From: an uncultured virus (IMG/VR IMGVR_UViG_3300033149_003138)
Lineage: Duplodnaviria; Heunggongvirae; Uroviricota; Caudoviricetes
Length of the DNA: 31,986 nucleotides
Virus record (IMG/VR): IMGVR_UViG_3300033149_003138
Reading direction: 5' to 3' (one strand)
The position numbers and the translations under genes were made by a program. Of the stretch, positions 1 to 31,986 are shown piece by piece (within the stretch, counting starts at the first letter, position 1; each line of letters begins with the position of its first letter). Below the pieces are notes generated by a model. That model did no database searches and had not been told where the DNA came from. It was given only the letters and a program-made list of their open reading frames with translations.

Positions 1-90
1 AAGTACATCGATAACCTCATCCAGCTTCTCGTAAGAGAAACAAGCATCCAGTCTTGTGATCTACCTGTTAAACCAAGGAGGCTTATCTAA
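1..90 (+). CDS. 3' end of a hypothetical protein (partial)
   Basis: Frame open from base 1 (KYIDNLIQLL...PRRLI*). Its TAA overlaps the next ATG (TAATG). Confidence 0.55.
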   Translation, partial: KYIDNLIQLLVRETSIQSCDLPVKPRRLI

Positions 91-1474: not shown

Positions 1475-1608
1475 ATATCTGTTTTACTTGTGCTAAGAAT
1501 GAAACTAAGTGCAAGACGTTTCTATATAGAAAATGGTATGCTTACATGAGGGAATCTTGTACCCTATACTTCCAGAAAGAGGGAGAGTCGAAGGATGGTA
1601 TTTCCTAA
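1471..1608 (+). CDS. Small Cys-containing hypothetical protein (45 aa)
   Basis: GTG overlaps the previous stop (GTGA); MNICFTCAKNETKC...; fills the gap in the operon. Confidence 0.45.
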   Translation: MNICFTCAKNETKCKTFLYRKWYAYMRESCTLYFQKEGESKDGIS

Positions 1609-2137: not shown

Positions 2138-2370
2138 TACAAGATATTGAGAAATTTAAGAAAGAGATGCTTGAGTGGGGGTACCAAGAGGATGTAGATT
2201 ATAAAATAATTGTAAACACCGAATCCTCAATTACGCTAGAGTTGATCAATATTGACCCTATGGAGGAAATTGTAACGATCCATGAGACAATACATAACTG
2301 TGATCCAAACTCTATCTATGATCTCAAGTTTCTGAAAATGGTGGTTAAATGGGTGAAGGAAGATGACTGA
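2134..2370 (+). CDS. Hypothetical protein
   Basis: ATGA overlap; GGAGGA upstream. Confidence 0.65.
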   Translation: MIQDIEKFKKEMLEWGYQEDVDYKIIVNTESSITLELINIDPMEEIVTIHETIHNCDPNSIYDLKFLKMVVKWVKEDD

Positions 2371-2623
2371 GAAAACGCTTTTATCCGTCATAATGGCTAT
2401 GTTCGACTTGTCCTCAGTGTGGTTCGGCTGGTTGACTCAACACTACTGGACTAAAAGCCTACATGCTCAGAACTATTATTGGACATCTGAACGAGTATTC
2501 CTTTTTACTTGGCTTCAGGAAATGGCTGTACTCTCTAGTTGCATGTTAGTTGTATCCGTCTGTCTTTTCCTTCTATTGCTACACAGGGTCTACAACATCC
2601 GAGTAAGTTGGGGTGATGAATAA
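2363..2623 (+). CDS. Small membrane protein (2 TM)
   Basis: Two hydrophobic segments; overlaps both neighbours. Confidence 0.6.
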   Translation: MTEKTLLSVIMAMFDLSSVWFGWLTQHYWTKSLHAQNYYWTSERVFLFTWLQEMAVLSSCMLVVSVCLFLLLLHRVYNIRVSWGDE

Positions 2624-3360
2624 TGCACTATAGATATGAGGCAAACATAACGGATTTCATAGATATGCTTATTGATAGGGGTATAGCCTTCAACGGGATC
2701 ATCACTGACAGCCCTTATGATGCCCTTGAGGAACACAGGGCTATCGGCACAACAACGAGACTCAAGAAAAGCTGGTTTCCCGTACTCACAATCGATGAGA
2801 TCACCCAGATAATGAATCTGATGCTAGACCTACTGAAAAAGGGTAGTCATGTCTACTTCTGGGGCAACACGGTCAGCATCTATGACTTCAAGGATATGTT
2901 CAAGAGCCTTGGCTACGAGTACAACAACACACTGTTCTGGGTGAAGACAGGTAACTTAGGCATGGGCTACAGCTACCGAAACAACTGCGAACCCATCCTC
3001 TTCGTAAGCAAGGGAACCAGAAGAAGCCTGAGAGACAAATCCACCAAGAACGTCTTCAGCTATCCCAGCCCCTACCATAGAAACAGCGACATGCCTCCAT
3101 ACGCAAAGCCCCCGATAATCTATGAGAGGATACTGAAGACGGCTAGTGAAGAGGAAGACCTTTGGCTAGACCCCTTCGCAGGAACAGACCCGATGAGCCT
3201 AACAGAAGGGAAGACGCTTACCGCTAAGGTGGATGGTAAATGGAAGTCATGGCAAATCAAAACAGCCTCAGTTGACATCAAGTACCCAGATCAAGCGTAT
3301 CCCTTCACCCTATCTTCTTTGGATACTGTTAGACTTGACTTAGGGGAGGTGAAACTATGA
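2623..3360 (+). CDS. DNA N6-adenine/N4-cytosine methyltransferase, beta class
   Basis: Motif IV-like IITDSPY near the N-terminus; LFWVK-GMG-YR-EPILF; AKP; motif I WLDPFAGT near the C-terminus. Confidence 0.8.
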   Translation: MHYRYEANITDFIDMLIDRGIAFNGIITDSPYDALEEHRAIGTTTRLKKSWFPVLTIDEITQIMNLMLDLLKKGSHVYFWGNTVSIYDFKDMFKSLGYEYNNTLFWVKTGNLGMGYSYRNNCEPILFVSKGTRRSLRDKSTKNVFSYPSPYHRNSDMPPYAKPPIIYERILKTASEEEDLWLDPFAGTDPMSLTEGKTLTAKVDGKWKSWQIKTASVDIKYPDQAYPFTLSSLDTVRLDLGEVKL

Positions 3361-10902: not shown

Positions 10903-11766
10903 TTAGTGTCTCTCGAACATGTATTGGTTCATCTTTTGGGTTGCTGTCAGCGTGAATCGTCTGCTTTTGCTGATGTAGTTCTCGATGGTGACTAGGTGGA
11001 GACCTGTCCAGTTTCGTATCTCTGCAATGCTGAATCGTGGGTCTGAGCAGAAGAATGTGATCCTGTTCTCTCTTAACCAGTGGGGGTAAAATTTCTTACC
11101 GAACACTTCTTTATGCCATCTCCACCACGTCGTTCTATCGATGTTCCACGGTTTTTCTCCTGAGTCAAATCTTTCTATCCATTGGATGATTTCAGGCACG
11201 AACGTCCAGTCTGTTCTCAGTTCGATTGGGAACGTTGCTTGCTGTCTCGTAACTCTCTTCCCCTTCTTGAGCCTGAATGCGATGATTCTAAGGACTTCGT
11301 TGCCTTCCGTATCTTCGTCAAACTCGAAATGGTCTCTTGTTAAATGTCTGTTTTCCGTGTTTCTGAAGCCTCCCCAGAAACCAAGACAACAACCTGCTTC
11401 TTTACGATACTCGTTGAAGGAATGTGGGTTAATGGAATCGATTTTTTTAATCATGTCATCTAGGTCGAGTATAGCGTCCTGCTTCCCGTATTTATACCTG
11501 TGTGGGTATCTCACATTGTCATGTCTCTTGGGGAGGTTGAATTTGTGTCTATAGTGATAGATTCTCTCTGGGTCTAGGTCGGCATATGGGTTTATGCTTC
11601 CATCTGGAAGGGTCTCCACGCCTCCAAATCCAAGTGCCTGTGCTATCTGTTTTCCACTGAATCTTGGGTTTCCTTCTCTGTCAGTAAGCATCCATAACTG
11701 CTTCAACTGGGTCTCCAGAACCGCTTCCTGTTCTGGAGTGAGTACGCTATAGCCTCTCATCCCCAT
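10903..11766 (-). CDS. Tyrosine recombinase/integrase
   Basis: Catalytic set: R (GFRNTE), K (RLKKG), HxxR (PHWLR), TGLH, Y (IENY). Confidence 0.85.
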   Translation of the reverse strand: MGMRGYSVLTPEQEAVLETQLKQLWMLTDREGNPRFSGKQIAQALGFGGVETLPDGSINPYADLDPERIYHYRHKFNLPKRHDNVRYPHRYKYGKQDAILDLDDMIKKIDSINPHSFNEYRKEAGCCLGFWGGFRNTENRHLTRDHFEFDEDTEGNEVLRIIAFRLKKGKRVTRQQATFPIELRTDWTFVPEIIQWIERFDSGEKPWNIDRTTWWRWHKEVFGKKFYPHWLRENRITFFCSDPRFSIAEIRNWTGLHLVTIENYISKSRRFTLTATQKMNQYMFERH

Positions 11767-12278: not shown

Positions 12279-14492
12279 TTATAATGGTAAGTGGCTTTTG
12301 GCTTGGGCTTCCTCTGCTAGAGGTATCCATCCTGTCTTCTTTATGATGTCTTTGTACAGAAGTCCTCCTGCCCTTCTGCATCTGGGGCAGTATCCGAATT
12401 TGGCTACATCGGTATCGTGATACAGTTGGTGATCGGATATTGTTTGGAAGGCTCTGCCTGTCTTTCTTGCCATTTCTCTCATGCTTGCTTTGTCGATGCT
12501 TACGCCTCTCTTGTTTCTGATTTTGGCTGGTGCCGTGGCTTCGATTATTGCTACGTGTTCTTGGTCACTTACGCTATCTCCTGCTCCCTGTGGCTGAGAC
12601 TCTACCATGCCTTCATGTTCGATGACTTTGATTCCTGTTTCATGAAGGATGTTTTCTTTCTCTTGCTTGTGCCATTCGACTTCAGGGAACCATCCTACTC
12701 CAAGATTCCCTTCTTTGGTTAGGATCACGAAGTCGCTTGGTGACATATTTCTTATCCAATCTGGATTGAAATAACGGTAAATGAACTTGAGATCGTCTGG
12801 TAGTCCAAGGTATCCTTGTCCTTTGAAGATCGTGTTGTCCACTAATACACGTATGTCGATGTCGATTGACGTGTACTTCAGCGTATCCAGTTCGAGTGCA
12901 AGACCCATGTGGCGTGCCTCTCTGATCAGGTAGATCATGTAGGCTTTGGCTTGTGTCTGGTTGTTGCTCACCCTAAGTCGGCTGTAGTACAGGTTGGATG
13001 CTTCACGTACTATGCCTACAACCAGCTTCTTCCAGCCCTTTACTCCCCTCTCGTAGAGCAAGTCTGTGACGATGTTCACATTTCCATATTCGTCGTTCAG
13101 GTCTTTGTGGAGTGGACTTGCTGTAACAAGCACGTCGTACTTTCTTAGGTGGGTGTGGTTCAGCCTGTTGATGGGTATCTCATCAAAGCAGGAGTCCAGC
13201 GTGACGTTGGGTGAGTGGACTAGGGCTAGTTTCTTATCTCCGTTTGCTCTGCCAACACCATCCACCTCTGGGCATCTGCACCATGCAAGACCCTCTCCAT
13301 CTCTACTATTTCCAGACCAACATGTTTTGCCCTTACGCATTACAAGGATGAGTCCATTGGGCACAGTAACGTCATAGATTTTTCCCTTATAGTGAGTCTT
13401 CTTGATCTTATCTCTTCTAATCTGTGGATTAATTGCCACTCTACTAAGTATCACAATGTATTCAGGATGGTTGCCTTTTACTTCCCTTCCATCTTTCATT
13501 ACAGAGTTTCTGGATGGTCTCATGTATCTTGATGTACCGTATCCGCTTTTTATTGCGATCTCTTGGAAGTCATCTGCTAGTTTTTTGGATGATGTTGAAT
13601 AGGTGTTTTTCTGGGTTCTATGCCCATCTCCTTTTATCATTGTCTCAACAAGGATTTTAAGGAGTTTTGAGGGGAGGTCTTTAACTTCTTGAGGGATGTA
13701 TTTTTCTGATGATTTTCCTAATGGGTAGAAATAATCATACAATGCAGGTGAATTTATGATAACTCTGTCGTTAGACCAATAAGCGTCAACCCCAAGAACT
13801 TTACATGATTCGAGGATTTCCTTAATATCATCTTCCACGAAATGAACTATTTCGATCCTCTTTGTGCTAGGTTTAACGAAGTGTGGAAATCCCCGAGTTA
13901 TATACCATCCAATTATTTTGACTAAGTTTTCGAGTTTTAGGGCTGAGGAATGCTGGATACCTACGCTGATGGGGGTATTTTTAAAATAACCTCTCCATTT
14001 TGTTTCCCTTATGAAGCGATATGGTATATGATGCGAAGAGTATTTCTCAGATAGATTAGGAAACTTTATAGCAGTCATTATTTTTTGTGTTCTCTTCTTA
14101 TAATGTTCGACAAAGCATCTGTGGTCAGGTGTAATTAGTAGGTTGTAGGGCGTTTTCCCTTCTCCTATTTGAATCATTTCTCCGTCGTAATCATAGACTT
14201 GAATTGCTGTAGGGTGTTGATATTCTAAATAGCCTTCTTTATCTCTTGTAGCTAGAAGACTTTCCTTAGTAACATCCTTAAACAATAACCAGCCTTCTTT
14301 AGAAAGAGTGTAGGTATCTGAGTCAAAACATCCAAATATGTCGAAGACGGTGTGACCGTTCTCAAGATAAGTCAATGCTCTGTGTTCTAGGAAGCTGGAT
14401 TTGCCTCCCCCACGGATGGGGGACATAACAAAGTCGGTGTGGGGTCTGTTGGTTAGGATTTTCTGTGTTCCTCTCACCCATACGATATTCAT
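12279..14492 (-). CDS. FtsK/HerA/A32-like P-loop ATPase, intein-containing (putative genome packaging or extrusion motor)
   Basis: Walker A GGGKSS; Walker B-like VGIVREAS; arginine-finger-like IREARHMGL; C-terminal HTH-like segment and CPRC. About 396 aa after splicing. Confidence 0.75.
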   Translation of the reverse strand: MNIVWVRGTQKILTNRPHTDFVMSPIRGGGKSSFLEHRALTYLENGHTVFDIFGCFDSDTYTLSKEGWLLFKDVTKESLLATRDKEGYLEYQHPTAIQVYDYDGEMIQIGEGKTPYNLLITPDHRCFVEHYKKRTQKIMTAIKFPNLSEKYSSHHIPYRFIRETKWRGYFKNTPISVGIQHSSALKLENLVKIIGWYITRGFPHFVKPSTKRIEIVHFVEDDIKEILESCKVLGVDAYWSNDRVIINSPALYDYFYPLGKSSEKYIPQEVKDLPSKLLKILVETMIKGDGHRTQKNTYSTSSKKLADDFQEIAIKSGYGTSRYMRPSRNSVMKDGREVKGNHPEYIVILSRVAINPQIRRDKIKKTHYKGKIYDVTVPNGLILVMRKGKTCWSGNSRDGEGLAWCRCPEVDGVGRANGDKKLALVHSPNVTLDSCFDEIPINRLNHTHLRKYDVLVTASPLHKDLNDEYGNVNIVTDLLYERGVKGWKKLVVGIVREASNLYYSRLRVSNNQTQAKAYMIYLIREARHMGLALELDTLKYTSIDIDIRVLVDNTIFKGQGYLGLPDDLKFIYRYFNPDWIRNMSPSDFVILTKEGNLGVGWFPEVEWHKQEKENILHETGIKVIEHEGMVESQPQGAGDSVSDQEHVAIIEATAPAKIRNKRGVSIDKASMREMARKTGRAFQTISDHQLYHDTDVAKFGYCPRCRRAGGLLYKDIIKKTGWIPLAEEAQAKSHLPL
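13308..14330 (-). mobile_element. Intein (341 aa) with a LAGLIDADG-type endonuclease domain
   Basis: Block A CFDSDTYTL, block B ITPDHR, blocks F/G IYDVTVPNG...WSGN|S. LAGLIDADG-like IIGWYITRG and ETMIKGDG; TSSKKLADDFQEI. Confidence 0.92.
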
Positions 14493-17639: not shown

Positions 17640-17759
17640 TATGTTTTTTTGAGATTATATTGATTGCTATAAGTATATCAAATACCTGTCATAAGAGGTG
17701 TCTGTAGCCATGATTTAGCTTATAAGTACATGATACAACTTGCCTCACGGATAACAAAA
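17640..17759. promoter_or_regulatory. Divergent promoter region
   Basis: AT-rich gap between divergent operons, with TATA-like CTATAAGTATAT (about 17667) and CTTATAAG (about 17719). Confidence 0.5.
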
Positions 17760-18779
17760 ATGAAGTTCGAGTTTGATCTTCAGAACCTTGCTATCGCAGT
17801 AATACTTGTGATGGGGCTTGCTTTAGGTGGAATGTATGTTTACAACAACATACTCACACCTCAAGAGGTAGTTGACGGTACTACCATCCCTGCTGATGAA
17901 GTCTTTGCTGGAAACCTTGACGTAAAGACATCTGAGAACGACTTCCTCTCGGGTGGGGCACACACATCCAGCAACGCAAAGCTGTACTTCTATACTTTAG
18001 AGCCTTCCAGTGAAGCAGACGGCGTAGTTATCTCAAGCTCAGCGAAGACCATCGAGATTCAGAGGTCTTCAAAGGGCTGGGCTTGGATAAGCATCCACAA
18101 CGAAGATGACGGGTACTTGATTACCCCGTGGATGGAGTCTGCCTTCAAGAACCAGAACCCCAGAGTCAAAGAGGTCTACTACAAAGACCTTGACAACGAT
18201 GACAAGAAAGAGATGATCGGTAAGTGCTGGTTCGGTGACATAGTTGTAGCCTCTGGGCAAGACCCTGAGTGGACACTGAACATCAACTGGATCGATGAAG
18301 ACGTGTCAGGGATCACCACAGACAACCCATCGGATCAGACGGGTCTAGGAGAGACAAGCGGAACCGCTTTCACTATAACGTGGAAGATAAGTGGGTGTTC
18401 TGCTGGGGATGGATTCGTCATTGGTAAGATATACGTCGTGACTAACGACACCAGAGAAGGCGAAGACATCAGGCTGGAAGACCTACGACTCTACGGAGAC
18501 TTGACTGTACACGGTAAGACAAGCTGGGGCACTCCTGTCAGCACCTCTGCTGGTGATTATGAGGGCTACTACTTTATGCCTACCGAGTACACTGACCCCT
18601 TCAACGGGATACTAGTCTACCGTGGCGTTCAGGCTTCAGACCAGCTATACGTTACTCTAAAGGGTAAGCTGTACCTAGAAACCAACAACAAGATTACCGT
18701 TGCTCTCTACTTCGAGACCGTCGGCGGTGACGGTACAACTGCTCAGGTATCTGACTCTGTACTCCTGAACGAAGCATAG
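17730..18779 (+). CDS. N-terminally anchored beta-rich protein, candidate major structural/envelope protein
   Basis: TM LAIAVILVMGLALGGMYVY followed by an acidic beta-rich ectodomain. First gene of a short terminated operon; likely start ATG 17760. Confidence 0.7.
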   Translation: MIQLASRITKMKFEFDLQNLAIAVILVMGLALGGMYVYNNILTPQEVVDGTTIPADEVFAGNLDVKTSENDFLSGGAHTSSNAKLYFYTLEPSSEADGVVISSSAKTIEIQRSSKGWAWISIHNEDDGYLITPWMESAFKNQNPRVKEVYYKDLDNDDKKEMIGKCWFGDIVVASGQDPEWTLNINWIDEDVSGITTDNPSDQTGLGETSGTAFTITWKISGCSAGDGFVIGKIYVVTNDTREGEDIRLEDLRLYGDLTVHGKTSWGTPVSTSAGDYEGYYFMPTEYTDPFNGILVYRGVQASDQLYVTLKGKLYLETNNKITVALYFETVGGDGTTAQVSDSVLLNEA

Positions 18780-18792
18780 GTGTGATGGAAGA

Positions 18793-19035
18793 ATGTCTGC
18801 CAAGTTGAGAGGACAAGTCAACATGGGGCTTGTCTACGTCGTACTGGGTATATTGATGTCCGTCGCATCTATGGTAGTTGGGTACATCATCGTCTTTGCT
18901 GAACCAGCAGTCATGCCATTGGGACAGATCGGCAAGTTCATATTGGTTGTGGTCATCCTTGGCGTGAACGGCATCCTAGTTGTCTGGGTTGCCTCGTTAA
19001 GAAGCAAGGTTCAGCGACAGATGCCTAAGATATAG
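18793..19035 (+). CDS. Small two-helix hydrophobic protein, candidate capsid/envelope protein
   Basis: MSAKLRG|QVN followed by two hydrophobic helices and a basic tail. Confidence 0.7.
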   Translation: MSAKLRGQVNMGLVYVVLGILMSVASMVVGYIIVFAEPAVMPLGQIGKFILVVVILGVNGILVVWVASLRSKVQRQMPKI

Positions 19036-19039
19036 CAAC

Positions 19040-19058
19040 TCTTCCCTCTTCTTTTTTT
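19040..19058 (+). terminator. Archaeal pyrimidine/oligo-T terminator
   Basis: TCTTCCCTCTTCTTTTTTT just after the stop at 19035; a new promoter-like AAACTCTTATAG follows. Confidence 0.6.
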
Positions 19059-19104
19059 AAACAATAAACTCTTATAGTTTTAGTGCCTTCATCTCCTTGT
19101 AGAG

Positions 19105-19869
19105 ATGGGACTAGCTAAATACTGGATAGAGTCTAGGAATCAGAGAACCAAAATAGACTCGATCTCAACCATCTGCATTATAGGTGCATTCCTCCTGTTT
19201 GGGATCGAGATGTTTGTGTTCTTGCCCAATGTGTCTGATGATCCCCTGATAATGGAGTTGGTTCTGAGATCAGTGATATGCTTCGTTCTCCTAATCAGTG
19301 GGCTTGTCGGCATGCTATTCTTTGGTGTACACATACCCAAACCAGAGACCAAGGGGGGAGACATCGACTTGGTTGTAAGTAGTGCCGAATGGACTCTGAT
19401 ACTTTTCTGGATGGCTGTCGATCTCATGTTCATAGTCGTGATGAATATAATCACCTTCCAAAACTCAGCACTTTTCCAAGCATCATTCATCCATTATCCC
19501 GATAGCCTTGTAAGATGGATGATCTTCAGCACCGCTATAGGCTGGACTGAGGAAGTCATATTCAGGGGCATGATGATCCCAGCAATGGCAAGGGCATCGG
19601 GAAAAGTAATAGCCGTGTTAGCGTCAACCTTGGCTTGGGTAGCCTTCCACGGAGGGGTCTATGGACTAGCACCCGCACCATTGATACTGATATTCTTCAC
19701 AGGCATTGGACTAGCAATCAGCTTCATGGCAACCGACTACAGGCTATCCACACCAATGCTTCCACATGGTTTAAACAACTTCATAGCAGTAGGATCAAGG
19801 GGTGCAATCTTGACTAGGACAATCGCTATAACCGAAGGGATGAGGGTTTTAAGTAGATGTTTAGGATAG
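19105..19869 (+). CDS. CPBP family (type II CAAX/Rce1/Abi) intramembrane glutamic protease
   Basis: Multi-TM protein with EEVIFRG (EExxxR), WVAFH and HGLNN (HxxxN). Confidence 0.88.
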   Translation: MGLAKYWIESRNQRTKIDSISTICIIGAFLLFGIEMFVFLPNVSDDPLIMELVLRSVICFVLLISGLVGMLFFGVHIPKPETKGGDIDLVVSSAEWTLILFWMAVDLMFIVVMNIITFQNSALFQASFIHYPDSLVRWMIFSTAIGWTEEVIFRGMMIPAMARASGKVIAVLASTLAWVAFHGGVYGLAPAPLILIFFTGIGLAISFMATDYRLSTPMLPHGLNNFIAVGSRGAILTRTIAITEGMRVLSRCLG

Positions 19870-21011: not shown

Positions 21012-21913
21012 GCAGAAGACAAGTATTGGACTTTACAGGTTTCTTCACTCTGCTAGGCATCGTGTTCATTGTAGTGGGGCTGGGGGGAGGAATCTACATC
21101 TTGAGCAGAGGCTTCGAGAAAGCAATGGGGGAGGACACCCAGACAACAATCGTCAACATAAGCGACATAACCGATCTCCCTGATGAGTTTAACACTACAG
21201 ACCCAGACCCACCACCTGATCCACCTGATGACGGTGACGATGACGTAACCATCATAGAAGACCCTACTGATCCAGATGATGACCAAGACCCTATGACCCC
21301 ACCAACTTATGACCACAGCTTCACGGGGAAGATAACGGTTAAAGCTGAGTTGATAGGCGTAAGCGGAAACCCACTAGCCTTCGTTAAGGAACTATACGGA
21401 GAACCAATCGACAAGCTGAAGATACGGTACGAGTGGGACTTCAAGCTAGGTGAAGACCTAGACCCACAGACATTCACACTTAACACCATAGGCACCATCA
21501 AGAAAATTTACTACCAAGACCTTGTTGATACCTATAACAAGGGAGAATATTTCGGGGGTAAAATCTTCACAACTTATGCCTTTGACGCTAAGGGCTGGGA
21601 TACACAGACCTTCGACATAGAATCAGAGAAGCTAGGCTTCATACAAATAAAGAATATAGGATCAGGTACAATACTACTCACCACCACATCAAGTAGCTTC
21701 CCTATAGAGTGGGAGGCTCTTGTAAGCACAAAAGGTGGAACCGTAAAAAAGATTCAGGGACAGAGTGGCATAGCTTTAAGCATAATTTATGACTACGATC
21801 AATCAGACTATTACACACCAGACCCGCATGACCCGTCATCACCTTACTATCCCTATGATCCCTACTATGACCCACACAGCCAAGAGCCTCTGATGAGCAT
21901 CGTAGTAAGGTAA
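21008..21913 (+). CDS. Membrane-anchored protein with a D/P-rich linker and a Y/D/P-rich tail
   Basis: N-terminal TM; DPDPPPDPPDDGDDD linker; YYPYDPYYDP tail. Confidence 0.8.
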   Translation: MSRRQVLDFTGFFTLLGIVFIVVGLGGGIYILSRGFEKAMGEDTQTTIVNISDITDLPDEFNTTDPDPPPDPPDDGDDDVTIIEDPTDPDDDQDPMTPPTYDHSFTGKITVKAELIGVSGNPLAFVKELYGEPIDKLKIRYEWDFKLGEDLDPQTFTLNTIGTIKKIYYQDLVDTYNKGEYFGGKIFTTYAFDAKGWDTQTFDIESEKLGFIQIKNIGSGTILLTTTSSSFPIEWEALVSTKGGTVKKIQGQSGIALSIIYDYDQSDYYTPDPHDPSSPYYPYDPYYDPHSQEPLMSIVVR

Positions 21914-21922
21914 AGCTAAAAG
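21909..21922 (+). promoter_or_regulatory. Shared BRE/TATA-like motif, surface gene 1
   Basis: GGTAAAGCTAAAAG starts 39 nt before the ATG; matches the motifs at 26859 and 31018. Confidence 0.5.
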
Positions 21923-21947
21923 CCTACAAGGTTTATTCTTTATTAAG

Positions 21948-24900
21948 ATGAAGTATAAAAAAGAGTTTTGTTTTTTAACGGTTTTAATCTTATTAAGTTC
22001 ATCTGTATCTCTATTTTTGAGAGAGTTTAATGTACCCTTAGTTAGGGCAGCAGGTATTGAAGACCTTACAACATGGTCTATCTCAGGAACAGATGCTGGT
22101 TCAGTTCTTTCAGTTACTACATTAACAGATAGTTTCACTCAAGCTGAGAGGCAGGATGATTTTTATGTTTATAAGGAAATTTCAATGAATAATTTCTCTA
22201 TCTTGTTAGATTTTACACTTTCAGACCTTGAGGCAGGGGATGTAACTGAACGAACTGCATTTACTATAGTAGCTGTAACTTCAAAAACAGGTAATATGGT
22301 AGACTTGGATACAGATGGGAAACAAATAGCTCTTTATATTATTCAAACTACGGATATTGATGACCAGTTCAATTTTGCTTTGGTAAGCAAACAGGATGGT
22401 GTAGCTGATGGTTATGAACATGATGCAACTGCTTATGGATTAGACACCTATTATATTAAATTGCAGAGAGTGGATACAAATCTAAACTGTAAAATTTATG
22501 ACTCTGAATCTGATAGGTCTACTGACACTGATGCTTTAGAATCACTTTCAATAGACTGTTTTTCAACAATTACAGACTATGTGATGATCTCACCATCTGA
22601 AAAAAGAACGGGAGACCCAACAGATCATGTATCTGGTAGTATTAGTAATGTTCAAGTTATCTCTGAGACAGGAACAACATGGACTGATCTTTCAACTTGG
22701 AGTGAATTTGACCCCAATGGAACCCTTAGTCAAGATACAAGCATTTTCAAATTGGATGTCACTGATCTAGATCGCCCTGATCACGCAAGATGGACTGTTG
22801 ATAATACAACTATTGGCGATTTTGATATTTTTTATAAGATTCGCTTTTCCGAGGTTGCTTATGGTTCAGGTGGTTGGAACTTTTTCTTAGGAGCATTAAC
22901 ACAATCTAATGAATCAGTACCCTATCATTCTGCGAACGATGAAGATGCAGTTGCGCTCCTTGTCCATAGGGGGGGTGATAACTCAGAGTTTTATCTCTCT
23001 CCACGGGCTACGGATAACGGTGATGCGATAGCGCAGAATGTTTCAACGCTTCTTGATTGTGATGTCACCTATTATTTGAGGTGGTGGAGTGATTCGGGGA
23101 TTTATTATGTTAGAATATGGACTGGTAATTGGTGGACAGGCTCACTTATTGCTAACGCTCAAACCAATACCGCTGCTGATCTAACTTTGCGATATGAATC
23201 TCTTATTTCCAACGGGGAGTATGGGGACACAGGTGTAGCGGAATCATCAGGCTATATTATGAGGCATAAAGGTGTAGTTGAGGAAGAAAGTTTTCCTTAT
23301 GAATACCTAAAGGACTACGTAGAAGAGGACGCTGCAAATAGGTTCGACATTTTTAGTTATAGTGCAGATGTTGACAATCTGCTCAGAAGTGATAGTGACC
23401 ACAATTTATATACAGATGGTGGCGTAGATTACTATGCTGATTTTGCATTAGATTTTGATTTAATTGTCACCCATATGGATATGACTAGTGGCACATATTG
23501 GCGTGGCATGATAGCTTCTTTCAGTGATGAAGCTGGTCAAGATTATAGTTGGCATGATGACAATAATAAGCACATATGGGGATTGGTTCTCCATTGTCAA
23601 AATGCTGGAGCAACATACGCAGTTGGCATATTGAATATAGCTGGAACTAGTAACAATCATGGCGGCACGGTAGCCAATCTTGCCGTCAATACGCAATATT
23701 ACCTCACTTTAAGTAAGACCAAAGACGTGGCAAAACTAATAGTGTATAGTGACTCCAATAGAGAAACGCAGGTCGGTTTGACGGAGCATACATTGAATCG
23801 GGATTATGCCCTTAGATATTTCTATGCACTTCAATCTATGGATAGTTCTGGTGACTATGATTGGTGTGGGACTGTAGCGAATTATCGCTTCACTGGAGGT
23901 ATATATGTTGAAAGTTTGACATCCACGGATTTGTTGCTTTGGACTGAGATCGCTTATGTTTCTAATACAACAGGCTCTCATAAACTCGAATATGATCTAG
24001 ACCCCCTTTTTGGAAGTGTGGATGGGATTCTATGGTCTAATTCTACTTCAACGCCTCAATTCTATATTCCTCAATCAGCTTACAATGTTAATCAAACGCT
24101 CTATTATAGAGTTACAATTAACGGTTATCAGGAGGAAAGTAACTTCACTTACACCAGTTCACCTAATGAGGATGTTCTTACTCAGATAACATTCCCTACA
24201 GAACAGTATCAGGGTGGAGACCACAGCCCTCCTACTGTTCTGTCTAATAAACGGATTTGGGTTGATCCTGTTAGTGGAAAGTGGACTATCAAAGTTGGTT
24301 CTGGGAGTGCAGTAAAAGTCTATCAAAGTAGTGATAGAGGGCTTAATTGGTCTCAAGTGGGTTCTAATATTGACACCACCACAGACCTCCCAGCGGGATG
24401 GAGTATAACTGTCAGCATGGGAGTATTTGCTTATGATGGTGCAAACTATTACCTTTTACTTTCAGGTAAAAACCTTGTAGGAACGGGTTCATTTCTTTAC
24501 AAGGGTGCTTCTTTCTCATCAATGTCTTATCAAGGAAAGCTATGTGATTATGGTTCGGGGTTCCCCCACCTTACTAAAAATTGTAGAGCGCATGATATGT
24601 GGTATAATAAAACCGATGGTAAGATGTGGTATGCTGTTGGAGGAGCAGATGATACAATGGGGTCTTGGGATTGGGTGTATAAAGTCTGTGATACAGACTC
24701 TGACAATGATCTTTCTGATGAGACTCCGACCCTTATCTATGACCAATCAGATTGGGGTACTGATAATTGGGCAAGTGGTTTTATATATCCTCCCAATGGA
24801 ATGTGGTGGGATTGGGATAATAATAGAGGTATTGGAGCCGTAGTAGGGTGTGGAAAAACTGAACAAGACTATGATTTTGAATCAGGGCTGTGTTTCCCCT

Positions 24901-26852
24901 CTTCCCCCATCTCAACCGCTGCAACACCAGCATATTTCTATCAGGATGTTACAAGTGCAAAGGGCTATTTTGGATTAAAATTTGACACAGGCGGGGATCA
25001 AAGCATTGATATGACAGATATTAATGATGCCTGTGTTTTTTGGGAACCCACAGGTGGTTTATTTGTTAAAATAAGAGAGTCAGGTATTAGCGGAAACCCA
25101 GACCCAGACAAGAATGACTTATGGCTGGGAGTAATGAGAGGCTTTTGGGCTAATACTACAATAGGAGTTGAGTCGGGTTATGCTAGAATAATGAGATACT
25201 ATAGTCTTCCAACAAAGGCGAACTTTAAGACTGATATGTTGAAGGTAGAAGTTTGGACTACGGGGCTGATTAATTGTACTTGGTCTCATACTAACGGTGT
25301 AGCTCCAACCTATGCTTATTGGACTATTGCTAATACAACCGAAGATGTGACCGTTACAATGAAGATTCAAGACCTAGTGGCTGATACTTGCTATCTCCAC
25401 CAATCGGATGAATCTGGATATTATGACTATGAAATAACAAATAGTAGTGTTGGAGCCATAAAGACACTTACCCCCTCTGGAAGTGGGGATGACTTCATGT
25501 TCACATTCACGCAAACCGTTTCAGGAGGCGCATCACCTCCACCAAATAATCTTACTATTGGTTATAATGAGACTAGAATAAACCTGCCCTGTGAGTTTTA
25601 CTCTAAGTGGAACCAGATGGGACTAGCAAATCTTACTTATTCTCTCTTCGAGTGGGACATCACGGGTTCCTATCAGCAGGTTGCTAACATCAGCCTCTCT
25701 GGTCAGCTTGACCTCTACCTACTAACAGGTCTTCGATAAACTACAGGTTCACCACATTCAACACAGATGGGAATAGCACCACAGCGTCAGACTCTCTCAC
25801 TCTTACAGAGCATCCCCCGACCAATGAGGCTATTGGACATAACGAGACAAACCCAAATCTTCCCTGCCTCTTCTACTCTAAGTGGAACCAGATGGGACTA
25901 GCAAATCTTACTTATTCTCTCTTCGAGTGGGACATCACGGGTTCCTATCAGCAGGTTGCTAACATCAGCCTCTCTGGTCAGCTTGACTAACAGGTCTTCG
26001 ATAAACTACAGGTTCACCACATTCAACACAGATGGATTTAATACCACTACATCAAACTCACTTACTATTGCAAATTCTGCCCCTACAGCCACAAGTTTGG
26101 AGATTACCAACCCGTCAGATGGGGTCTACATACTCGCTGGGAGTGAACGAGACTACACGTTGAGGATGGTAGGAACTGACGCGGATGGGGGAAGTGACAT
26201 CTCAACGATCCACGGAAGCCTAGCCTTCGATGACACCCACATGCTGAACATATCGATGTCAGGAGGAACCGTTACCTTCCAAGAGGGTGGTGATTACGTC
26301 AGGGAAGTGGAGAACACCGTAACAACCTCTGGGACAAACGTTACCGTTGACGTGGTTCTGGTCTTCAGTCAGACCACGCCAATAGTAAACAACATTGATG
26401 GATACCTCAAAGTCACGGATTCAGCTAGTAACTCATCTGGATGGACTGCCTTCAACGACATTGTATCTACAATGCTTTACGCGGAAGATGGTGGTGGAGG
26501 GGGTTGGGTCACACCTACAGAAGATGAAGAAGAAGCCATTTATCCCGAATCTGAATCCGAACCTGAATTACTCCCTGCACCAGAGGGACTCGTGATCTTC
26601 ACAAACAACCCTGAACTGTACTCAACTGAGTATCTTATAGAATCAAGAAACCCACTGACAAACCAGTATATCAATGCCATACCGATTCCTTGGCAATGGA
26701 CACCCGCACAGAAAATGATAGTCATAATAGGATTGCCAATGACTGTAATATTCCTCCTAAGCATTATATACAAGAAACGTGAGGAATCCAAGAAAAGAAA
26801 ACGCAGGAAGGATGCAGTGTTTGTTAACCCTATACTCAAGGCTAAATACTGA
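21948..26852 (+). CDS. Large modular surface glycoprotein 1 (about 1650 aa if repaired; two frameshifting deletions)
   Basis: Signal peptide, three ~200-aa lectin-like beta repeats, Asp-box SSDRGLNW, two Ig-like repeats, Gly linker, C-terminal TM. ORFs 21948-25739 and 25956-26852 join through an open segment 25713-25987 once 19 and 29 nt are restored. Confidence 0.8.
25650..25703 (+). repeat. 54-nt identical core, copy 1
   Basis: GAGTGGGACATCACGGGTTCCTATCAGCAGGTTGCTAACATCAGCCTCTCTGGT. Confidence 0.95.
25925..25978 (+). repeat. 54-nt identical core, copy 2
   Basis: Identical to copy 1, with identity extending about 50 nt further upstream. Confidence 0.95.
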
Positions 26853-26858
26853 ATCAAG

Positions 26859-26872
26859 GGTAAACCTATAAG
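26859..26872 (+). promoter_or_regulatory. Shared BRE/TATA motif, surface gene 2
   Basis: GGTAAACCTATAAG starts 38 nt before the ATG. Confidence 0.65.
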
Positions 26873-26896
26873 CCAACATCCTTATTTCTATCCAAG

Positions 26897-29800
26897 ATGA
26901 AGTCTTCAAAACCACTATTCCTCTTAATGTGCGCACTCCTTTTTTCCCCTCTGCTTTCTGCATATTTTGGTTTCCCCGACATTCCACCTGTAAAGGCAAG
27001 TTGGCTTACAGGGTGGGGATACCGTAAGTCCCTGACTCTGGGAGGGAGTACTGACGGAGACCTCACAGACTTCCTTATTGAGATTGTTGTGCATAGATCA
27101 ACTGGGACAGACAGTGGAAAAAACGTATATGTTGGAAATAATTGTGAGAACGACTTCAGTGACATCCGTTTCACAACGTCAGATGAAACAACCCAATTAG
27201 ATTACCACAGGGTTTCCTACACATCTGGTGTAAGTGGAACCTTCATGGTGGAGGTTAATTCCATTTCAGCAAGCCCCGCTACTACGAAAATATACCTTTA
27301 TTATGGAAATTCGGGGGCATCAACCACCAGTAGTACGGGAGTCTACATGCTCTACGAAGATTTTAGCAGTGGTATTTCTAGCTGGTCGGGTTCGGGAGAT
27401 GCCTTCTCGGTATCTGCGGGAAAGCTCATTACTCCCCACGCAGATGAGGATTACGACTATCTCTACAAGGAGTTTACAAAGAAGTCAAATTCAAAGGTAA
27501 AAGTGAAGTTCACCTTTAGGTCAAATTACGAAAAAAGTATCAGTGGAGGATGGCGACCAAGGGCACCCTGCATAGCACTTGTTCATGGAACAGCTACAGA
27601 TTTTACTCAAGACTCCATACGGATACAGTACCGAAACATTGACAATGTAAAATATTGGCGAGGGGACTTATTCGAAGGCGGGGCTGGGCATACAAGTGAG
27701 CAGACGTATGCTTGGAGTGAAGACACATGGATAACTACCACGGCTGAATACGACGGCTCAACCCTAACCGTGAATAACGATGACGGAGGTACTACGCGAA
27801 CCGTTAATAATGTCCAGACTACCACTTGGAAGTATTTCGCCATTAAAAACAGGCGATCCCAAGGATGGATAGATGATATTAAGATATGGGAAATCGCAAG
27901 CGATATGCCTTCATACGATGGCTGGGGGTCACAAGAATCTGATTCCGATCCAGCCCCCATCAATGAGTCTATTGGGTACAACGAGACAAGAATGGATGAA
28001 CCCTGTCTCTTCTACTCTTACTGGAATCAGACAGGCAGTGCCAACCTAACCTATTCCATACTTGAGTGGGACATCACGGGTTCCTATCAGCAGGTTGCTA
28101 ACATCAGCCTCTCTGGTAACTACAGGTTCAACACATATAACACGGATGGAAGCAACACCACAGCATCAGACACTTTGACCTTAACCGCAAGCCCCGTTCC
28201 AAGTAACCTCAGCATCGGTTATAATGCGACGGAGAAAAACGAGCCATGTCTCTTCTACTCTTACTGGAATCAGACAGGCAGTGCCAACCTAACCTATTCC
28301 ATACTTGAGTGGGACATCACGGGTTCCTATCAGCAGGTTGCTAACATCAGCCTCTCTGGTTTCCAACTAACAGGTCTTCGATAAACTACAGGTTCACGAC
28401 CTACAACACGGATGGAAGCAACACCACAGCATCAGACATAATCACGGTCTCAGAGTATCCACCTACTAATGATGCAGTTGGAAATAATGAAACCAAACCA
28501 AACTATCCATGCCTGTTTTACAGTAAATGGAGTCAAACAGGTGATAGAACCTTAGATAAAGCTAGATTCCAGTGGAATGTTACAGGCTCGTTTCTGGATG
28601 TAGAGACCAAATCTCTAAGTGGAGGCTGGGCTAATTTTACACAGACAATACCTTTCAGTGTTGAAGAATCAACACTTGGTTACAAAGTCATATGTAATAA
28701 CACATTGGGAGAAGAGACCACGGCTACAGGCTCATTTCCAGTATTATCCTCTTCTCCAGTTGAGTCAGATATTGGAACCAATAACACACATTATCCACTA
28801 CCGATCCTGTTCTATGTTGACTGGAGTTCTGCTGGGTCTCTAACAAACAGCACCTTCCACTATAACGCTACAGGATCATGGACAAGCGAATCAGCTACAA
28901 TATCAAATTTAAGAACCAAAATCGTGAAGGAATTTGATTACACTTACGCTGGTGAGACAATATCCTTCTACTTCCGAGTGACAAACAGCTACGGGAACAC
29001 AACCCAATCCTCAACATATAATCTGTCTATGACAGCTAGAAACCTTGTTAAAATTACTTATTACCCTTCAACTATCAATGGTGTGTTTGAAAAATGCAGG
29101 GAATGGATGTTCAGATCAAAAACAACTGGATATTATCATTTATTCTTCAAGGATGAAACACACGTAAACTATGACGCCCACCACATCTTCAGCAAGAATG
29201 GGATAAATTGGGATGACGCTAATAGAACACAGCTAGATGACGTGTTGAACGGGCATATACATATGGACTTTGAAATGTGGTACAACAGCACATCTGATAT
29301 AACCTATTTTGATTCAATATGGACTAAAAACGGGGGCACAGGCGGTCAGCATGAGTTATGGTACGGAAGATGGAGGGAGCATCCTAATGGATCAGTTGCT
29401 CTCCTTAATCCTTTAACTAAAATAGCGTACTGCGACACACAGTATCCAATTCCCCCTGAGAACGAATATTATACTTACGCTGATCTTATGGGAATTTCTT
29501 TGGATGTAACTACGGATGGCTACGCTGTTGTCGAATACTTCTTTGCAACTCCTTACGCTGGGAAAACTTGGTGGAACATTTTAGTTAATGGTAATAGAGA
29601 TGGTACGTGGGTGAACAGTACAACCCTGACGGTACACGACATAGAGGATGGTGGGTACCTATATGCAGGTGACATAAATAACCTTCTCTGGATCGGAGCC
29701 TATCTAAACATATCTGGGGGAGGGCTTTCAGATACAGCCTTCATGCGTCACTCATCAAATGGGGGGGCATCTTGGTCTTCCTTCGTAGACACTGGCATTC

Positions 29801-31011
29801 ATGCTACTGGGGGTTGGGGTGAATCGGTTATGGGCAACCCCAAATGCATAGTTCTTAACAATACCTTCTACGTGATAGCGTCCATTGATGACTCTCCGTA
29901 TCCTTTGAACCTATATCGTATTGACCCTGATAATTCGTGGGCTGTAGAGTCTCTAGGCACTATAAACGCAACAATGTCTAGTGATGACGTAAACACTTTT
30001 CCCATATATGACTCGATTTTCAATAGGCTACTACTGATCTACAAAACAGATGCCTATCGATGGTATTATCTCAATAACAACACGTTTTCAGACGAAGTTA
30101 AGGGCGTTTTATTCACAAAAAACACAGGATCAGTGGTAATGGATTTTGGGACTTATTCACAAAACCCTACAAGAAGACATATAGGAGCTATGGATGAAAA
30201 CGGTATCAGCTTCACTTATTACGAGTTCAACCCAACAGGATCACCACTATCAGCCAACAACGCACCGACAACTTCCTCCGCTAGTTTCACTAACCTCAAT
30301 GACGGTAGATTTATTCTTGCTGGTCTCGAAAAAGAGTATGCTCTTGAGCTAGTTGGCTATGACTCAGATGGGGCATCTGACATTTCAACACATCAATTTG
30401 CTCTTGAACTAATTAACGACAATTGGATTAATGGAACCTATGATGCATCTTCTTTTTCATGCAGTATAACGGCTGGAAGTGAGTATGTAAACATACTCCA
30501 AGTAAGCAGAACCAATAGCAGATTATCTCAGACCGTCACCATAAGCATAAGGTTCGCACCCTCCACACCGTTAACCCCCTTCCTTGACTGTTGGTATCAG
30601 ACAACGGATAGTTCATCAGACGTGTCAGGCTGGACAGAGTACACAGACTTGGCTGAGATAGTTCTTTACGAAGAGGGAGGTGGAGGGGGAGGTGGTGGAG
30701 GCTGGGGTGGTGGAAGCACTCCTTCCTTGCCTATAACACCAAAACAGCCTATAATGATTACTAATGAGCCTGAGATTTTCTCAGAGGAATACCTGATCGA
30801 GGTCAGGAACCCGATAACGAATCAGTACATCAACCTGTTTCCAATTCCGTGGGACTGGACTGAGGCTCAGAAACTTGCTGTTCTCTGGATACTTTTGATC
30901 ATCATACTGTTGTTGGTGGGTGCAATCTACAAGATGTCAAAGGACTCTGCAAAGAAGAGAAGCAAGGAAGAGGCAAAGTATCTTAACCCGATAATCAAGG
31001 TGAAATACTGA
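26897..31011 (+). CDS. Large modular surface glycoprotein 2 with a DUF2341-like domain (about 1400 aa if repaired; one frameshift)
   Basis: Signal peptide; WLTGWGYRKSLTL...DFSDIRFT...IYLYYGN (DUF2341-like); ConA-like region; Ig-like repeats; Asp-boxes SKNGINW and SSNGGASW; Gly linker; C-terminal TM. The frame of 28705-31011 is open back to about 28363. Confidence 0.8.
28064..28117 (+). repeat. 54-nt identical core, copy 3
   Basis: Identical core; shares about 60 extra upstream nt with copy 4. Confidence 0.95.
28307..28360 (+). repeat. 54-nt identical core, copy 4
   Basis: Identical core. Confidence 0.95.
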
Positions 31012-31017
31012 GTCTGG

Positions 31018-31031
31018 GGTAAACCTATAAA
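31018..31031 (+). promoter_or_regulatory. Shared BRE/TATA motif, surface gene 3
   Basis: GGTAAACCTATAAA starts 42 nt before the ATG. Confidence 0.65.
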
Positions 31032-31059
31032 CATATATCAATATATTCTCTTGTCCAAG

Positions 31060-31986
31060 ATGAAGCCACGGAAACTGATCTCCCTTCTATTGCTCGTTGT
31101 ATTGCTTCTACCCAATAGACCGATACAAGTTGTATCAGCCTCAACTGAGAATTTATCGACGTGGACTGAAAGCGACTCACTTGGTAAATTATCTACAACC
31201 TCTGATAGAGTCACTTTCACGAACCTTGAACGAGATGACCCCAGCACTTATTTGTATGACACAAAGACAGGTGAACTAGCAGACTTTGAATTAACCTTCC
31301 AGATGAAAATAACGCACATCGATTCAAGCACAAAGACCGTCAGAATGATGCCTTTGAACATAGGACAAAAAGTAGGACAGGGATTCAGACAAAACTGGTT
31401 AGACGGTGACACCCAAATTGGTTTGCAGATTCGTAGCTGGAGTAGCACATCGACATATACCATACTTCTCGTTGAAACCTATTCAGGTTTAGCATATTCG
31501 GCAGGGGCACAAACGGGCAACTTGAACGTAAACACTCTTTACTATGTGTATATGAAAAAAGATGGAACCTCATTAACATACAAGGTTGACGATAACTCAG
31601 ACTTTTCAAGCCCAATACAAAATGCTGGTCTAACTCTCCACGCCGACCACGACTTGAATTACATCATGTTTCCTCAATCAGTATATAGCTATGCGGGAAC
31701 CGAAAGAATTTCAGGCTATCAAGAATATCTGGATATGGGTGGTGAGGATGCGTTTAGTCCCGTACCTACAAATCTAAGTATAGGTCATAACGCTACCGAG
31801 AAGAACCAGCCCTGTCTTATGCACTCTCAATGGAACCAGACTGGTACTGCTAACCTGACGTATTCATTGCTTGAGTGGGACATCACGGGTTCCTATCAGC
31901 AGGTTGCTAACATCAGCCTCTCTGGTCAGCTTGACTGGGCTAACAGCACCCAGACTCTACCTACTAACAGGTCTTCGATAAACTAC
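31060..31986 (+). CDS. Modular surface glycoprotein 3 (partial; missing from the ORF track)
   Basis: MKPRKLISLLLLVVLLLP... is open for 309 codons to the window end. It has one lectin-like repeat (ENLSTWTESD...LERDD) homologous to those of gene 1, then an intact Ig-like repeat. Confidence 0.88.
   Translation, partial: MKPRKLISLLLLVVLLLPNRPIQVVSASTENLSTWTESDSLGKLSTTSDRVTFTNLERDDPSTYLYDTKTGELADFELTFQMKITHIDSSTKTVRMMPLNIGQKVGQGFRQNWLDGDTQIGLQIRSWSSTSTYTILLVETYSGLAYSAGAQTGNLNVNTLYYVYMKKDGTSLTYKVDDNSDFSSPIQNAGLTLHADHDLNYIMFPQSVYSYAGTERISGYQEYLDMGGEDAFSPVPTNLSIGHNATEKNQPCLMHSQWNQTGTANLTYSLLEWDITGSYQQVANISLSGQLDWANSTQTLPTNRSSINY
31873..31926 (+). repeat. 54-nt identical core, copy 5, followed by the longest (apparently undeleted) continuation
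   Basis: Core followed by CAGCTTGACTGGGCTAACAGCACCCAGACTCTACCTACTAACAGGTCTTCGATAAACTAC. Confidence 0.95.

What the first reader, a model, noticed from the sequence alone, without database searches (positions are those of the whole stretch)
21909..31986. Array of paralogous adhesin-like cassettes with interchangeable heads joined at a DNA-identical hinge
Seen: at least three tandem genes, each with its own GGTAAA(C/G)CTA(T/A)AA motif and an AAGATGAAG start. Heads differ: three lectin-like repeats plus an Asp-box region; DUF2341-like plus ConA-like; one lectin-like repeat. All contain a ~98-aa Ig-like module whose central 54 nt are identical in five copies, including third codon positions, while flanks diverge. 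Copies within one gene share longer identity (1=2, 3=4), and a sixth copy near 28460-28740 is fully diverged. Inference: ongoing gene conversion or recombination at the hinge could swap heads and stalks, giving a combinatorial receptor-binding repertoire without a reverse transcriptase or shufflon inversion. Assembler consensus could inflate the identity.
Basis: partly seen in the sequence, partly recalled or inferred. Interest (0 to 1): 0.75.

Follow-up and report, generated by a model that had tools for sequence, protein, structure and literature searches.

The report
Gene-converted hinge in archaeal adhesin array
Three neighbouring surface-protein genes of an uncharacterised archaeal virus-like element share a short stretch kept almost letter-for-letter identical by recombination between the copies; this is a known process in a new protein family, and the repeat also tripped the genome assembler into making false frameshifts.

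Summary
The identity is real, but its stated shape is partly an assembly artefact. Five fibronectin-III-like modules in three tandem, membrane-anchored surface-protein genes share 54 identical bases, while silent sites in their flanks are about 60% diverged (P about 2e-7 per pair). Right after the core, copies 1-4 lack 19, 29, 54 and 31 bases. Other assemblies of the same genes break elsewhere, a separate run reads on through the missing bases, and seven junctions fit 114-base contig ends (k=115). So the frameshifts are errors, and the true shared tract is longer: about 83-122 bases between genes, with three silent differences, and about 180-190 within genes. The best explanation is gene conversion and unequal crossing-over at the most conserved part of a repeated stalk module. 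Domain swapping over evolutionary time is supported: relatives mix the same domains, and gene 1's low-GC3 head meets its stalk at the first module. Ongoing combinatorial switching is not shown. No alternative joins were seen (low power), there is no recombination-site symmetry, and all copies are direct repeats. New member of a known kind; modest interest.

The parts
21909..21921 (+). Promoter-like motif 1 (resembles an archaeal BRE-TATA; label recalled, function not tested)
21948..26852 (+). Gene 1: signal/TM segment, three homologous ~200-aa head repeats, a ~450-aa probable propeller region, two A-type Fn3-like modules, tail domain, Gly linker, conserved anchor motif, TM helix and basic end. 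About 1650 aa once the two assembly deletions (48 nt in all) are allowed for; split into ORFs 21948-25739 and 25956-26852 in the window
   Evidence: length only
25455..25647 (+). Interval holding the GC3 change point of gene 1 (best position 25581): head 0.27, tail 0.44
25539..25813 (+). Module copy 1 (core 25650-25703); 19-nt assembly deletion after 25712
25814..26078 (+). Module copy 2 (core 25925-25978); 29-nt assembly deletion after 25985-25988
26073..26852 (+). Tail and membrane anchor of gene 1; 43% identical to tail 2 over alignment A1, with silent sites diverged (35 of 102 same codon)
26859..26871 (+). Promoter-like motif 2
26897..31011 (+). Gene 2: DUF2341-containing head, two A-type modules, two diverged modules, a ~400-aa payload domain, tail and anchor. 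About 1399 aa once the two assembly deletions (85 nt) are allowed for; split into ORFs 26897-28384 and 28705-31011 in the window
   Evidence: length only
27152..27373 (+). DUF2341 (PF10102), residues 86-159 of gene 2
27953..28195 (+). Module copy 3 (core 28064-28117); 54-nt in-frame assembly deletion after 28117. That stretch is intact in P0002 and in the loose end of run X1
28196..28458 (+). Module copy 4 (core 28307-28360); 31-nt assembly deletion after 28360
28459..28755 (+). Module copy 6 (diverged, intact; Fn3-like)
28756..29031 (+).
30250..31011 (+). Tail and membrane anchor of gene 2
31018..31030 (+). Promoter-like motif 3
31060..31986 (+). Gene 3, 5' part: one head repeat and module copy 5; runs off the end of the window
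31765..31986 (+). Module copy 5 (core 31873-31926), the only A-type copy without a deletion; the window ends exactly 114 nt after the core start

Best explanation
A tandem array of at least three large, modular, membrane-anchored surface proteins (probable adhesins) on an archaeal, virus-like mobile element of about 94 kb. Their stalks are strings of ~97-aa fibronectin-III-like modules. One module type (A) occurs five times. Ordinary homology-driven recombination between these copies (non-crossover gene conversion, plus occasional unequal crossing-over between genome copies or relatives) has recently overwritten the middle of the module. Conversion persists where the protein is most constrained, so a near-identical tract of about 83-122 nt is shared between genes and about 180-190 nt within genes. 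The same modules are natural crossover points, so over evolutionary time heads and payload domains are exchanged, duplicated or lost there. The apparent 54-nt boundary and the frameshifts are scaffolding errors caused by this repeat. SHOWN: the identity and its contrast with the flanks; the artefactual deletions; the Fn3-like fold; mixed domain architectures among relatives; the compositional break in gene 1. INFERRED: conversion as the cause; the full tract lengths; k=115 scaffolding as the source of the errors; adhesin function; viral nature and circularity; a foreign origin of head 1.
For: Silent-site contrast: 17 of 17 in the core against 74 of 184 in the flanks; the two tails show 35 of 102. 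Tracts are mosaic, with different ends for different pairs: left ends at -51 (1=2), -60 (3=4), -3 (3/4 with 5) and +1; right ends at +140, +122 and +121. Artefact evidence: P0002 (contig 93,916) has the same first 370 residues as head 2, carries the post-core segment intact and lacks a stretch left of the core instead; P0005 (contig 93,949) also breaks left of the core. A contig of run X1 leaves the window at 28117 and continues with 29 letters identical to copy 5. Left pieces end 114 nt into each pairwise repeat (copy 1 at +63, copy 2 at +61..64, copies 3 and 4 at +54, the window end at +114). Right pieces in P0002 start at +8 and at +8 or +9, 114 nt before the 3=4 repeat ends at +121. Constraint: relatives' A-type modules match copy 5 at 29 of 38 and 24 of 38 residues in the tract, against 15 of 36 and 14 of 36 in the left flank. 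Exchange over time: among 16 relatives examined, the same head repeats, propeller regions, DUF2341 block, modules and tail occur in different orders. Gene 1 GC3 switches from 0.27 to 0.48 at 25581 (interval 25455-25647; 0 of 200 permutations reach it); head against tail with the tracts left out gives 0.27 against 0.44, p 1.3e-7. P0001 and P0003 carry one A-type module where genes 1 and 2 carry two.
Against: No DNA of a relative's module was obtained, so concerted evolution could be checked against relatives only at the protein level. The middle of the tract in copies 1 and 2 is inferred, not read. Run X1 is held as short-word contigs at depth 2-3, which can join paths across a repeat. The other assemblies may come from the same or sibling samples. 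The GC3 test was chosen after seeing the data. At fourfold sites, heads 2 and 3 (0.37, 0.34) look like the backbone (0.38), so only head 1 (0.26) shows the signal. Simple recent duplication cannot be separated from conversion for the within-gene pairs.
Confidence: 0.78

Rival explanations
1. A dedicated diversification system: the tract is a maintained recombination hot spot that reshuffles heads and stalks within the living population, possibly catalysed by the element's own tyrosine-recombinase-like protein (10903-11766) acting with low sequence specificity.
For: The tract sits between head and stalk in all three genes. Its inferred length (over 104 nt for most pairs) exceeds the 104-bp identity used by the pTN3 integrase (PMC8371274, passage). 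The compositional break of gene 1 falls at the first module. Each gene has its own promoter-like motif.
Against: No alternative joins in X1 (low power); P0002 shows the same head 2 - copy 3 - copy 4 order. No inverted symmetry in the tract: 85-100% of 157 background windows score as well. The recombinase label rests on a recalled motif only (no Pfam, NCBIfam or relevant PDB hit), and the gene lies 10 kb from the array. Direct repeats would delete genes on crossover within one molecule. Three silent differences persist inside the tract.
Confidence: 0.12
2. The identity itself is an assembler product: diverged copies were collapsed to one consensus by read correction or bubble merging.
For: Every copy lies at an assembly junction, and raw reads were not available.
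Against: A de Bruijn graph breaks only where copies really share a whole k-mer. The 114-nt ends are anchored in copy-specific flanks. X1, assembled separately with short words, had 12 of 13 laid records at 99% identity or better, no listed letter differences, and a record that runs through the core. Copy-specific silent differences survive at +84, +87 and +90. The flanks are far too diverged to merge.
Confidence: 0.05
3. The tract is held constant by a function at DNA or RNA level (antisense RNA structure, protein-binding site or overlapping element) rather than by copying.
For: The minus strand of the tract folds with z about -2.8 to -3.1; it holds a 10-of-13 inverted repeat.
Against: 3 of 61 array windows reach z of -2.5 or lower on one strand or the other, and 15 of 61 hold an equally good inverted repeat. 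Two of the three silent differences fall in the predicted stem. No Rfam match. Tract ends differ from pair to pair.
Confidence: 0.04
4. The frameshifts after the cores are real scars or phase-variable switches.
For: They are in the window sequence.
Against: Other assemblies of the same genes break at other places. X1 reads on through the missing bases. A further assembly has a similar local deletion far from any module (P0040).
Confidence: 0.02

Closest known systems
Ectopic recombination and gene conversion among cell-surface adhesin paralogs (yeast FLO family, PMC3512402, abstract read; prokaryotic concerted evolution, PMC6053082, abstract read; H. pylori bab paralogs, seen in a search listing only)
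   Same: Paralogous surface proteins with diverged binding ends share homogenised segments; recombination at shared repeats can yield chimeric alleles.
   Different: Here the genes lie on an archaeal mobile element, the tract is short and lies inside an Fn3-like stalk module, and no chimeric alleles have been observed.
Conserved DNA motifs at domain borders of phage receptor-binding proteins, proposed as recombination hot spots (44- and 95-nt motifs, PMC10408124, passages read; 10.64898/2026.05.12.724579, passages read)
   Same: A short conserved stretch at the border between a constant anchor part and an exchangeable binding part, with binding domains moving between genomes.
   Different: Those motifs are 63-81% identical across genera; this tract is nearly 100% identical within one genome. 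The anchor here is a C-terminal membrane helix, not an N-terminal tail anchor. Conservation across genomes could not be tested.
Modular lectin proteins of spindle-shaped Thermococcales viruses (PMC12934983, passages read) and the adhesin of wyrdviruses (10.1101/2021.07.29.453957, passages and section 8 read)
   Same: Archaeal virus surface proteins with a transmembrane helix whose binding domains are gained, lost and replaced; the one run holding this sequence is labelled a hydrothermal vent metagenome (confirmed present).
   Different: No sequence link to these families was shown; this element is about 94 kb; the passages read describe no DNA-identical tract.
Invertible tail-fibre modules of haloviruses phiCh1, phiH1 and ChaoS9 (PMC6471424, passages read)
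   Same: Archaeal virus adhesin genes with shared repeats that can exchange parts.
   Different: Those are two inverted copies around a central recombinase. Here all copies are direct, each gene has its own promoter-like motif, and no recombinase gene lies in the array.

Membership tests
Concerted evolution by segmental gene conversion | A paralog segment far more alike at silent sites than its flanks | tested here: met
   17 of 17 against 74 of 184
Concerted evolution by segmental gene conversion | Mosaic tracts with different ends for different pairs | tested here: met
   Left ends -60, -51, -3, +1; right ends +121, +122, +140; the middles of copies 1 and 2 are inferred
Concerted evolution by segmental gene conversion | Paralogs closer to each other than to the counterparts in relatives | tested here: inconclusive
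   Met at protein level (relatives 24 and 29 of 38 residues); no relative's DNA was available
Phage RBP recombination hot-spot motifs | Motif conserved in DNA across genomes | not testable with these tools
   No relative's module DNA was recovered
Phage RBP recombination hot-spot motifs | Binding domains exchanged at the motif | tested here: inconclusive
   Mixed architectures and the GC3 break at copy 1 fit; crossover points in relatives were not mapped, and some relatives mix the same domains without this module type
phiCh1/phiH1-type invertible tail-fibre module | Two copies in inverted orientation | tested here: not met
   All copies are on the + strand; no exact inverted 22-mer in the window
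phiCh1/phiH1-type invertible tail-fibre module | Recombinase gene between or beside the copies | tested here: not met
   None in the visible array; the only candidate is 10 kb away and has no profile support; the DNA beyond gene 3 was not seen
Site-specific recombination site (att/dif type) | Inverted arms of 9-13 nt around a 5-8 nt spacer | tested here: not met
   Best scores are no higher than background
Diversity-generating retroelement (features recalled) | Template and variable repeats differing at adenines | tested here: not met
   The differences are three silent changes (T/G, A/T, T/A), not adenine-specific variation
Diversity-generating retroelement (features recalled) | Reverse transcriptase gene | tested here: inconclusive
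   None among the 20 window proteins scanned; about 62 kb of the contig was not available
Silent-cassette antigenic variation (vlsE or pilE type; features recalled) | Promoterless donor cassettes and one expression site | tested here: inconclusive
   All three genes have a start codon, a hydrophobic N-terminus and a promoter-like motif; expression was not tested
Spindle-shaped archaeal viruses | Small two-helix hydrophobic major capsid protein homologous to the His1/SSV type | tested here: inconclusive
   An 80-aa hydrophobic ORF at 18793-19035 fits in size but has no family hit

The most novel reading that the evidence does not exclude
The A-type Fn3 module is a maintained recombination hinge that lets an archaeal enveloped virus reshuffle, duplicate and delete adhesin heads and stalks within its population, and import heads from relatives. 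It would use only direct repeats of about 120 nt and possibly its own low-specificity tyrosine recombinase: an accordion-like receptor repertoire without inversion, silent cassettes or reverse transcriptase.
Probability: 0.12. Interest if true: 0.7.

Novelty: new member of a known kind. Interest (0 to 1): 0.33.

Why it matters
The process is known, so the main value is modest. (1) It is a clean example of segmental concerted evolution in an apparently undescribed family of modular archaeal surface proteins (13 cluster representatives at E of 1e-10 or better with the tail profile), on an unclassified element of about 94 kb. The array probably sets host attachment, and one head appears to have been imported at the module. 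(2) It is a caution: public records of these genes are broken in different places by scaffolding errors, so apparent pseudogenes, frameshifts or sharp 'identical cores' at such repeats should not be read as biology. If population-level shuffling were shown, it would be a new route to receptor diversity in archaeal viruses.

Tried and rejected
No whole genome is held. The exact core pattern found 0 hits in viral, metagenome and genome contigs. Protein-seeded locus searches found nothing in viral contigs or genome contigs, and one 1-kb locus in metagenomes (an anchor end only). The cluster-member look-up could not be made, so the number and independence of the assemblies behind P0002, P0004 and P0005 remain open. 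My first guess, a k=55 signature (54 nt), was dropped once all junctions fitted 114. The +8 position follows from the 114 rule, but it was not written down before P0002 was seen; my note calling it prospective overstates this. Rejected: RNA structure or inverted repeat; att-like site; Rfam family; tRNA; sigma-70 promoters and terminators, at chance level. The gene 1 change point had one piece out of frame and is replaced; genes 2 and 3 gave only weak change points (3 and 19 of 200 permutations). P0040 looked like a possible swapped allele but is gene 1 from another assembly with a local deletion. The element could not be classified: the conserved 339-aa protein has 13 homolog clusters (one of them itself; the others 49-74% identical) and a two-domain beta-sandwich model without a convincing viral or PDB match. 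The ATPase-like ORF matched phages only through its intein, and its C-terminal part matched no solved structure. A weak Pfam HEWD hit on the core (below cut-off) was disregarded. X1 covered only 14 of 30 bins, so its lack of alternative joins is no evidence. No complex prediction was run. Searches did not turn up a description of this family (102: 0 papers with 5 of 6 terms); most subscription journals are not searched, and no supplements were read, so gene tables in supplements could hold it.
Full report
OBSERVATION. The 54-nt core is exact in five copies (25650, 25925, 28064, 28307, 31873), and pairs 1=2 and 3=4 are identical over 114 nt each. The contrast with the flanks is far beyond chance. 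In the 36 codons left of the core, copies from different genes use the same codon at 74 of 184 positions where the residue is the same and degenerate; in the core, all 17 degenerate codons agree (P about 1.9e-7 per pair). The two tails behave like the flanks, at 35 of 102. A sixth copy (28459-28755) and a seventh, unreported copy (28756-29031) are diverged. An AlphaFold model of copies 6 and 7 has mean pLDDT 93. Its best matches are fibronectin-III domains (Foldseek E 6e-7; VIA Z about 11, with single domains at rmsd 1.5-2.5 over about 85 residues). DUF2341 in head 2 is confirmed; the lectin and Asp-box labels got no profile support.

Against copy 5, copies 1-4 lack 19, 29, 54 and 31 nt immediately after the core, and three of these break the frame. 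Four results show that these are errors. First, the protein database holds the same genes from other assemblies. P0002 (contig 93,916) matches head 2 for 370 residues, has the post-core segment intact, and lacks a stretch left of the core; P0005 (contig 93,949) also breaks on the left. Second, in the one run that holds the sequence (X1, share 0.11, depth 2-3), 12 of 13 laid records were 99% identical or better, and a loose end at 28117 continues with 29 letters equal to copy 5 and then one silent change. Third, the junctions obey one rule. Left pieces stop 114 nt into each pairwise repeat (+63, +61..64, +54, +54, and the window end at +114), and the right pieces in P0002 start at +8 and at +8 or +9, 114 nt before the 3=4 identity ends at +121. 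This is what contig ends of a k=115 de Bruijn graph, joined with a mis-estimated overlap, would give (inference). That setting occurs in print (listing only), and local errors of this kind are described, with IDBA-UD suspected as especially prone (PMC7111523, passages). Fourth, yet another assembly has a local deletion in gene 1 far from any module (P0040). Allowing for the 48 and 85 missing bases gives open frames of about 1650 and 1399 codons.

THE TRUE TRACT. Because a graph breaks only at real shared words, the errors argue that the repeat is real and longer than 54 nt. Between the gene-2 copies and copy 5, the identity runs from about +1 to +83, with silent differences at +84, +87 and +90, and resumes from +91. 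Applying the 114 rule to P0005's +9 start implies that copy 5 equals copy 1 or 2 from +1 to +122 (inference). Within genes the tracts span about -51 to +140 and -60 to +121 (ends read, middles partly inferred). P0005's assembly has a join inside copy 5 although its contig is as long as ours appears to be (93,986 for P0004, identical to tail 2). The element is therefore probably a circle of about 94 kb opened at different repeats (inference).

CONTEXT. The window looks like an archaeal mobile element. It has a DNA methylase, a nuclease-like ORF and a CAAX protease, an ATPase-like ORF with an intein and many membrane proteins; no capsid or tail family was recognised in the 18 proteins scanned. 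A conserved 339-aa membrane-anchored protein has 13 homolog clusters, one on a 92.7-kb contig, but neither fold nor sequence searches classified it. An earlier AI note on the same contig also calls it an uncharacterised archaeal virus-like element (not checked here).

THE FAMILY. A profile of the two tails found 24 cluster representatives at E of 0.001 or better, 13 at 1e-10 (two are the element's own tails). I mapped window domains on 16 of them. The same blocks recur in different orders. P0010 and P0012 carry gene 1's head repeat and propeller region without this module type. P0009 carries head repeats, modules and gene 2's payload domain. P0001 has the DUF2341 block internally, followed by modules. 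P0007 has a module and tail each about 72% identical to gene 2's, around a different payload; whether it is this element's missing third tail or a relative's gene is unknown. The tract is also the most conserved part of the A-type module in P0003 and P0001 (29 and 24 of 38 residues, against 15 and 14 of 36 in the left flank), and these have one A-type module where genes 1 and 2 have two. P0011's two similar modules share 48 of 97 residues with a 10-residue identical run, a faint hint of older homogenisation elsewhere in the family. Gene 1 changes composition at its first module: GC3 goes from 0.27 to 0.48 at 25581 (interval 25455-25647; 0 of 200 permutations), and head against tail without the tracts is 0.27 against 0.44 (p 1.3e-7; fourfold sites 0.26, 0.40, backbone 0.38). 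Heads 2 and 3 show no such signal.

MECHANISM. The simplest account is homology-driven recombination between stalk modules. Conversion homogenises the stretch where copying is harmless to the protein, and rare crossovers duplicate modules, delete payloads or bring in heads from relatives. Confidence 0.78. A programmed system is not excluded (0.12): the pTN3 integrase recombines identical segments as short as 104 bp (PMC8371274, passage), and the window has a recombinase-like ORF by recalled motif. But that ORF has no profile support, the tract has no site symmetry, all copies are direct repeats, and no alternative join was seen (weak test). RNA-level constraint was examined and rejected.

COMPARISON AND VERDICT. 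It works like ectopic recombination among adhesin paralogs (PMC3512402, abstract; PMC6053082, abstract) and like the proposed hot-spot motifs of phage receptor-binding proteins (PMC10408124, passages; 10.64898/2026.05.12.724579, passages). Modular gain and loss of lectin domains is already reported for archaeal vent viruses (PMC12934983, passages). It is not an invertible tail-fibre module (PMC6471424, passages), and the differences between copies are not those of a DGR. Searches did not find this family described; supplements were not read. Several earlier AI notes report the same pattern in other genomes, which suggests that it is common, but they are not evidence. Verdict: real feature, partly misdescribed because of assembly errors; new member of a known kind; interest 0.33.

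Noticed in passing
window 12279-14492 (-): P-loop ATPase-like ORF with an intein at about residues 53-397 that matches inteins in unrelated phage genes; the extein has no PDB or Pfam hit. Possibly the packaging or extrusion ATPase.
   Followed up: partly
window 10903-11766 (-): 287-aa ORF with a recalled tyrosine-recombinase residue pattern but no Pfam, NCBIfam or relevant PDB support: either a very diverged recombinase or a look-alike.
   Followed up: partly
window 17730-18779 (+): Highly conserved 339-aa protein (12 other clusters at 49-74% identity; N-terminal helix and two beta-sandwich domains) without a known family; a candidate major envelope protein and marker for this unclassified group of elements.
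   Followed up: partly
window 18793-19869 (+): An 80-aa hydrophobic two-segment ORF next to a CAAX (Rce1-like) protease; the size fits small spindle-virus capsid proteins, but there is no homology support.
   Followed up: no
window 26640-26852 and 30790-31011; P0001, P0003, P0007-P0014; L001 21-272: A conserved motif just before the C-terminal membrane helix is shared by the family, including the 206-aa P0014; it could be a sorting or virion-incorporation signal.
   Followed up: no
window 24297-24318: Another assembly (P0040, 5-kb contig) has a local deletion here, outside any repeat found, showing that public versions of gene 1 are broken in more than one way.
   Followed up: yes
P0007 (no coordinates): 866-aa fragment, 72% identical to module 6 and to the tail domain of gene 2, with a similar C-terminal end; it may be the missing tail of gene 3 or belong to a close relative.
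   Followed up: partly
window 1595-3360: A nuclease-like ORF (weak Cas4/Hjc hits, E about 0.001-0.003) close to an N6/N4 DNA methylase; possibly a restriction-modification pair.
   Followed up: no
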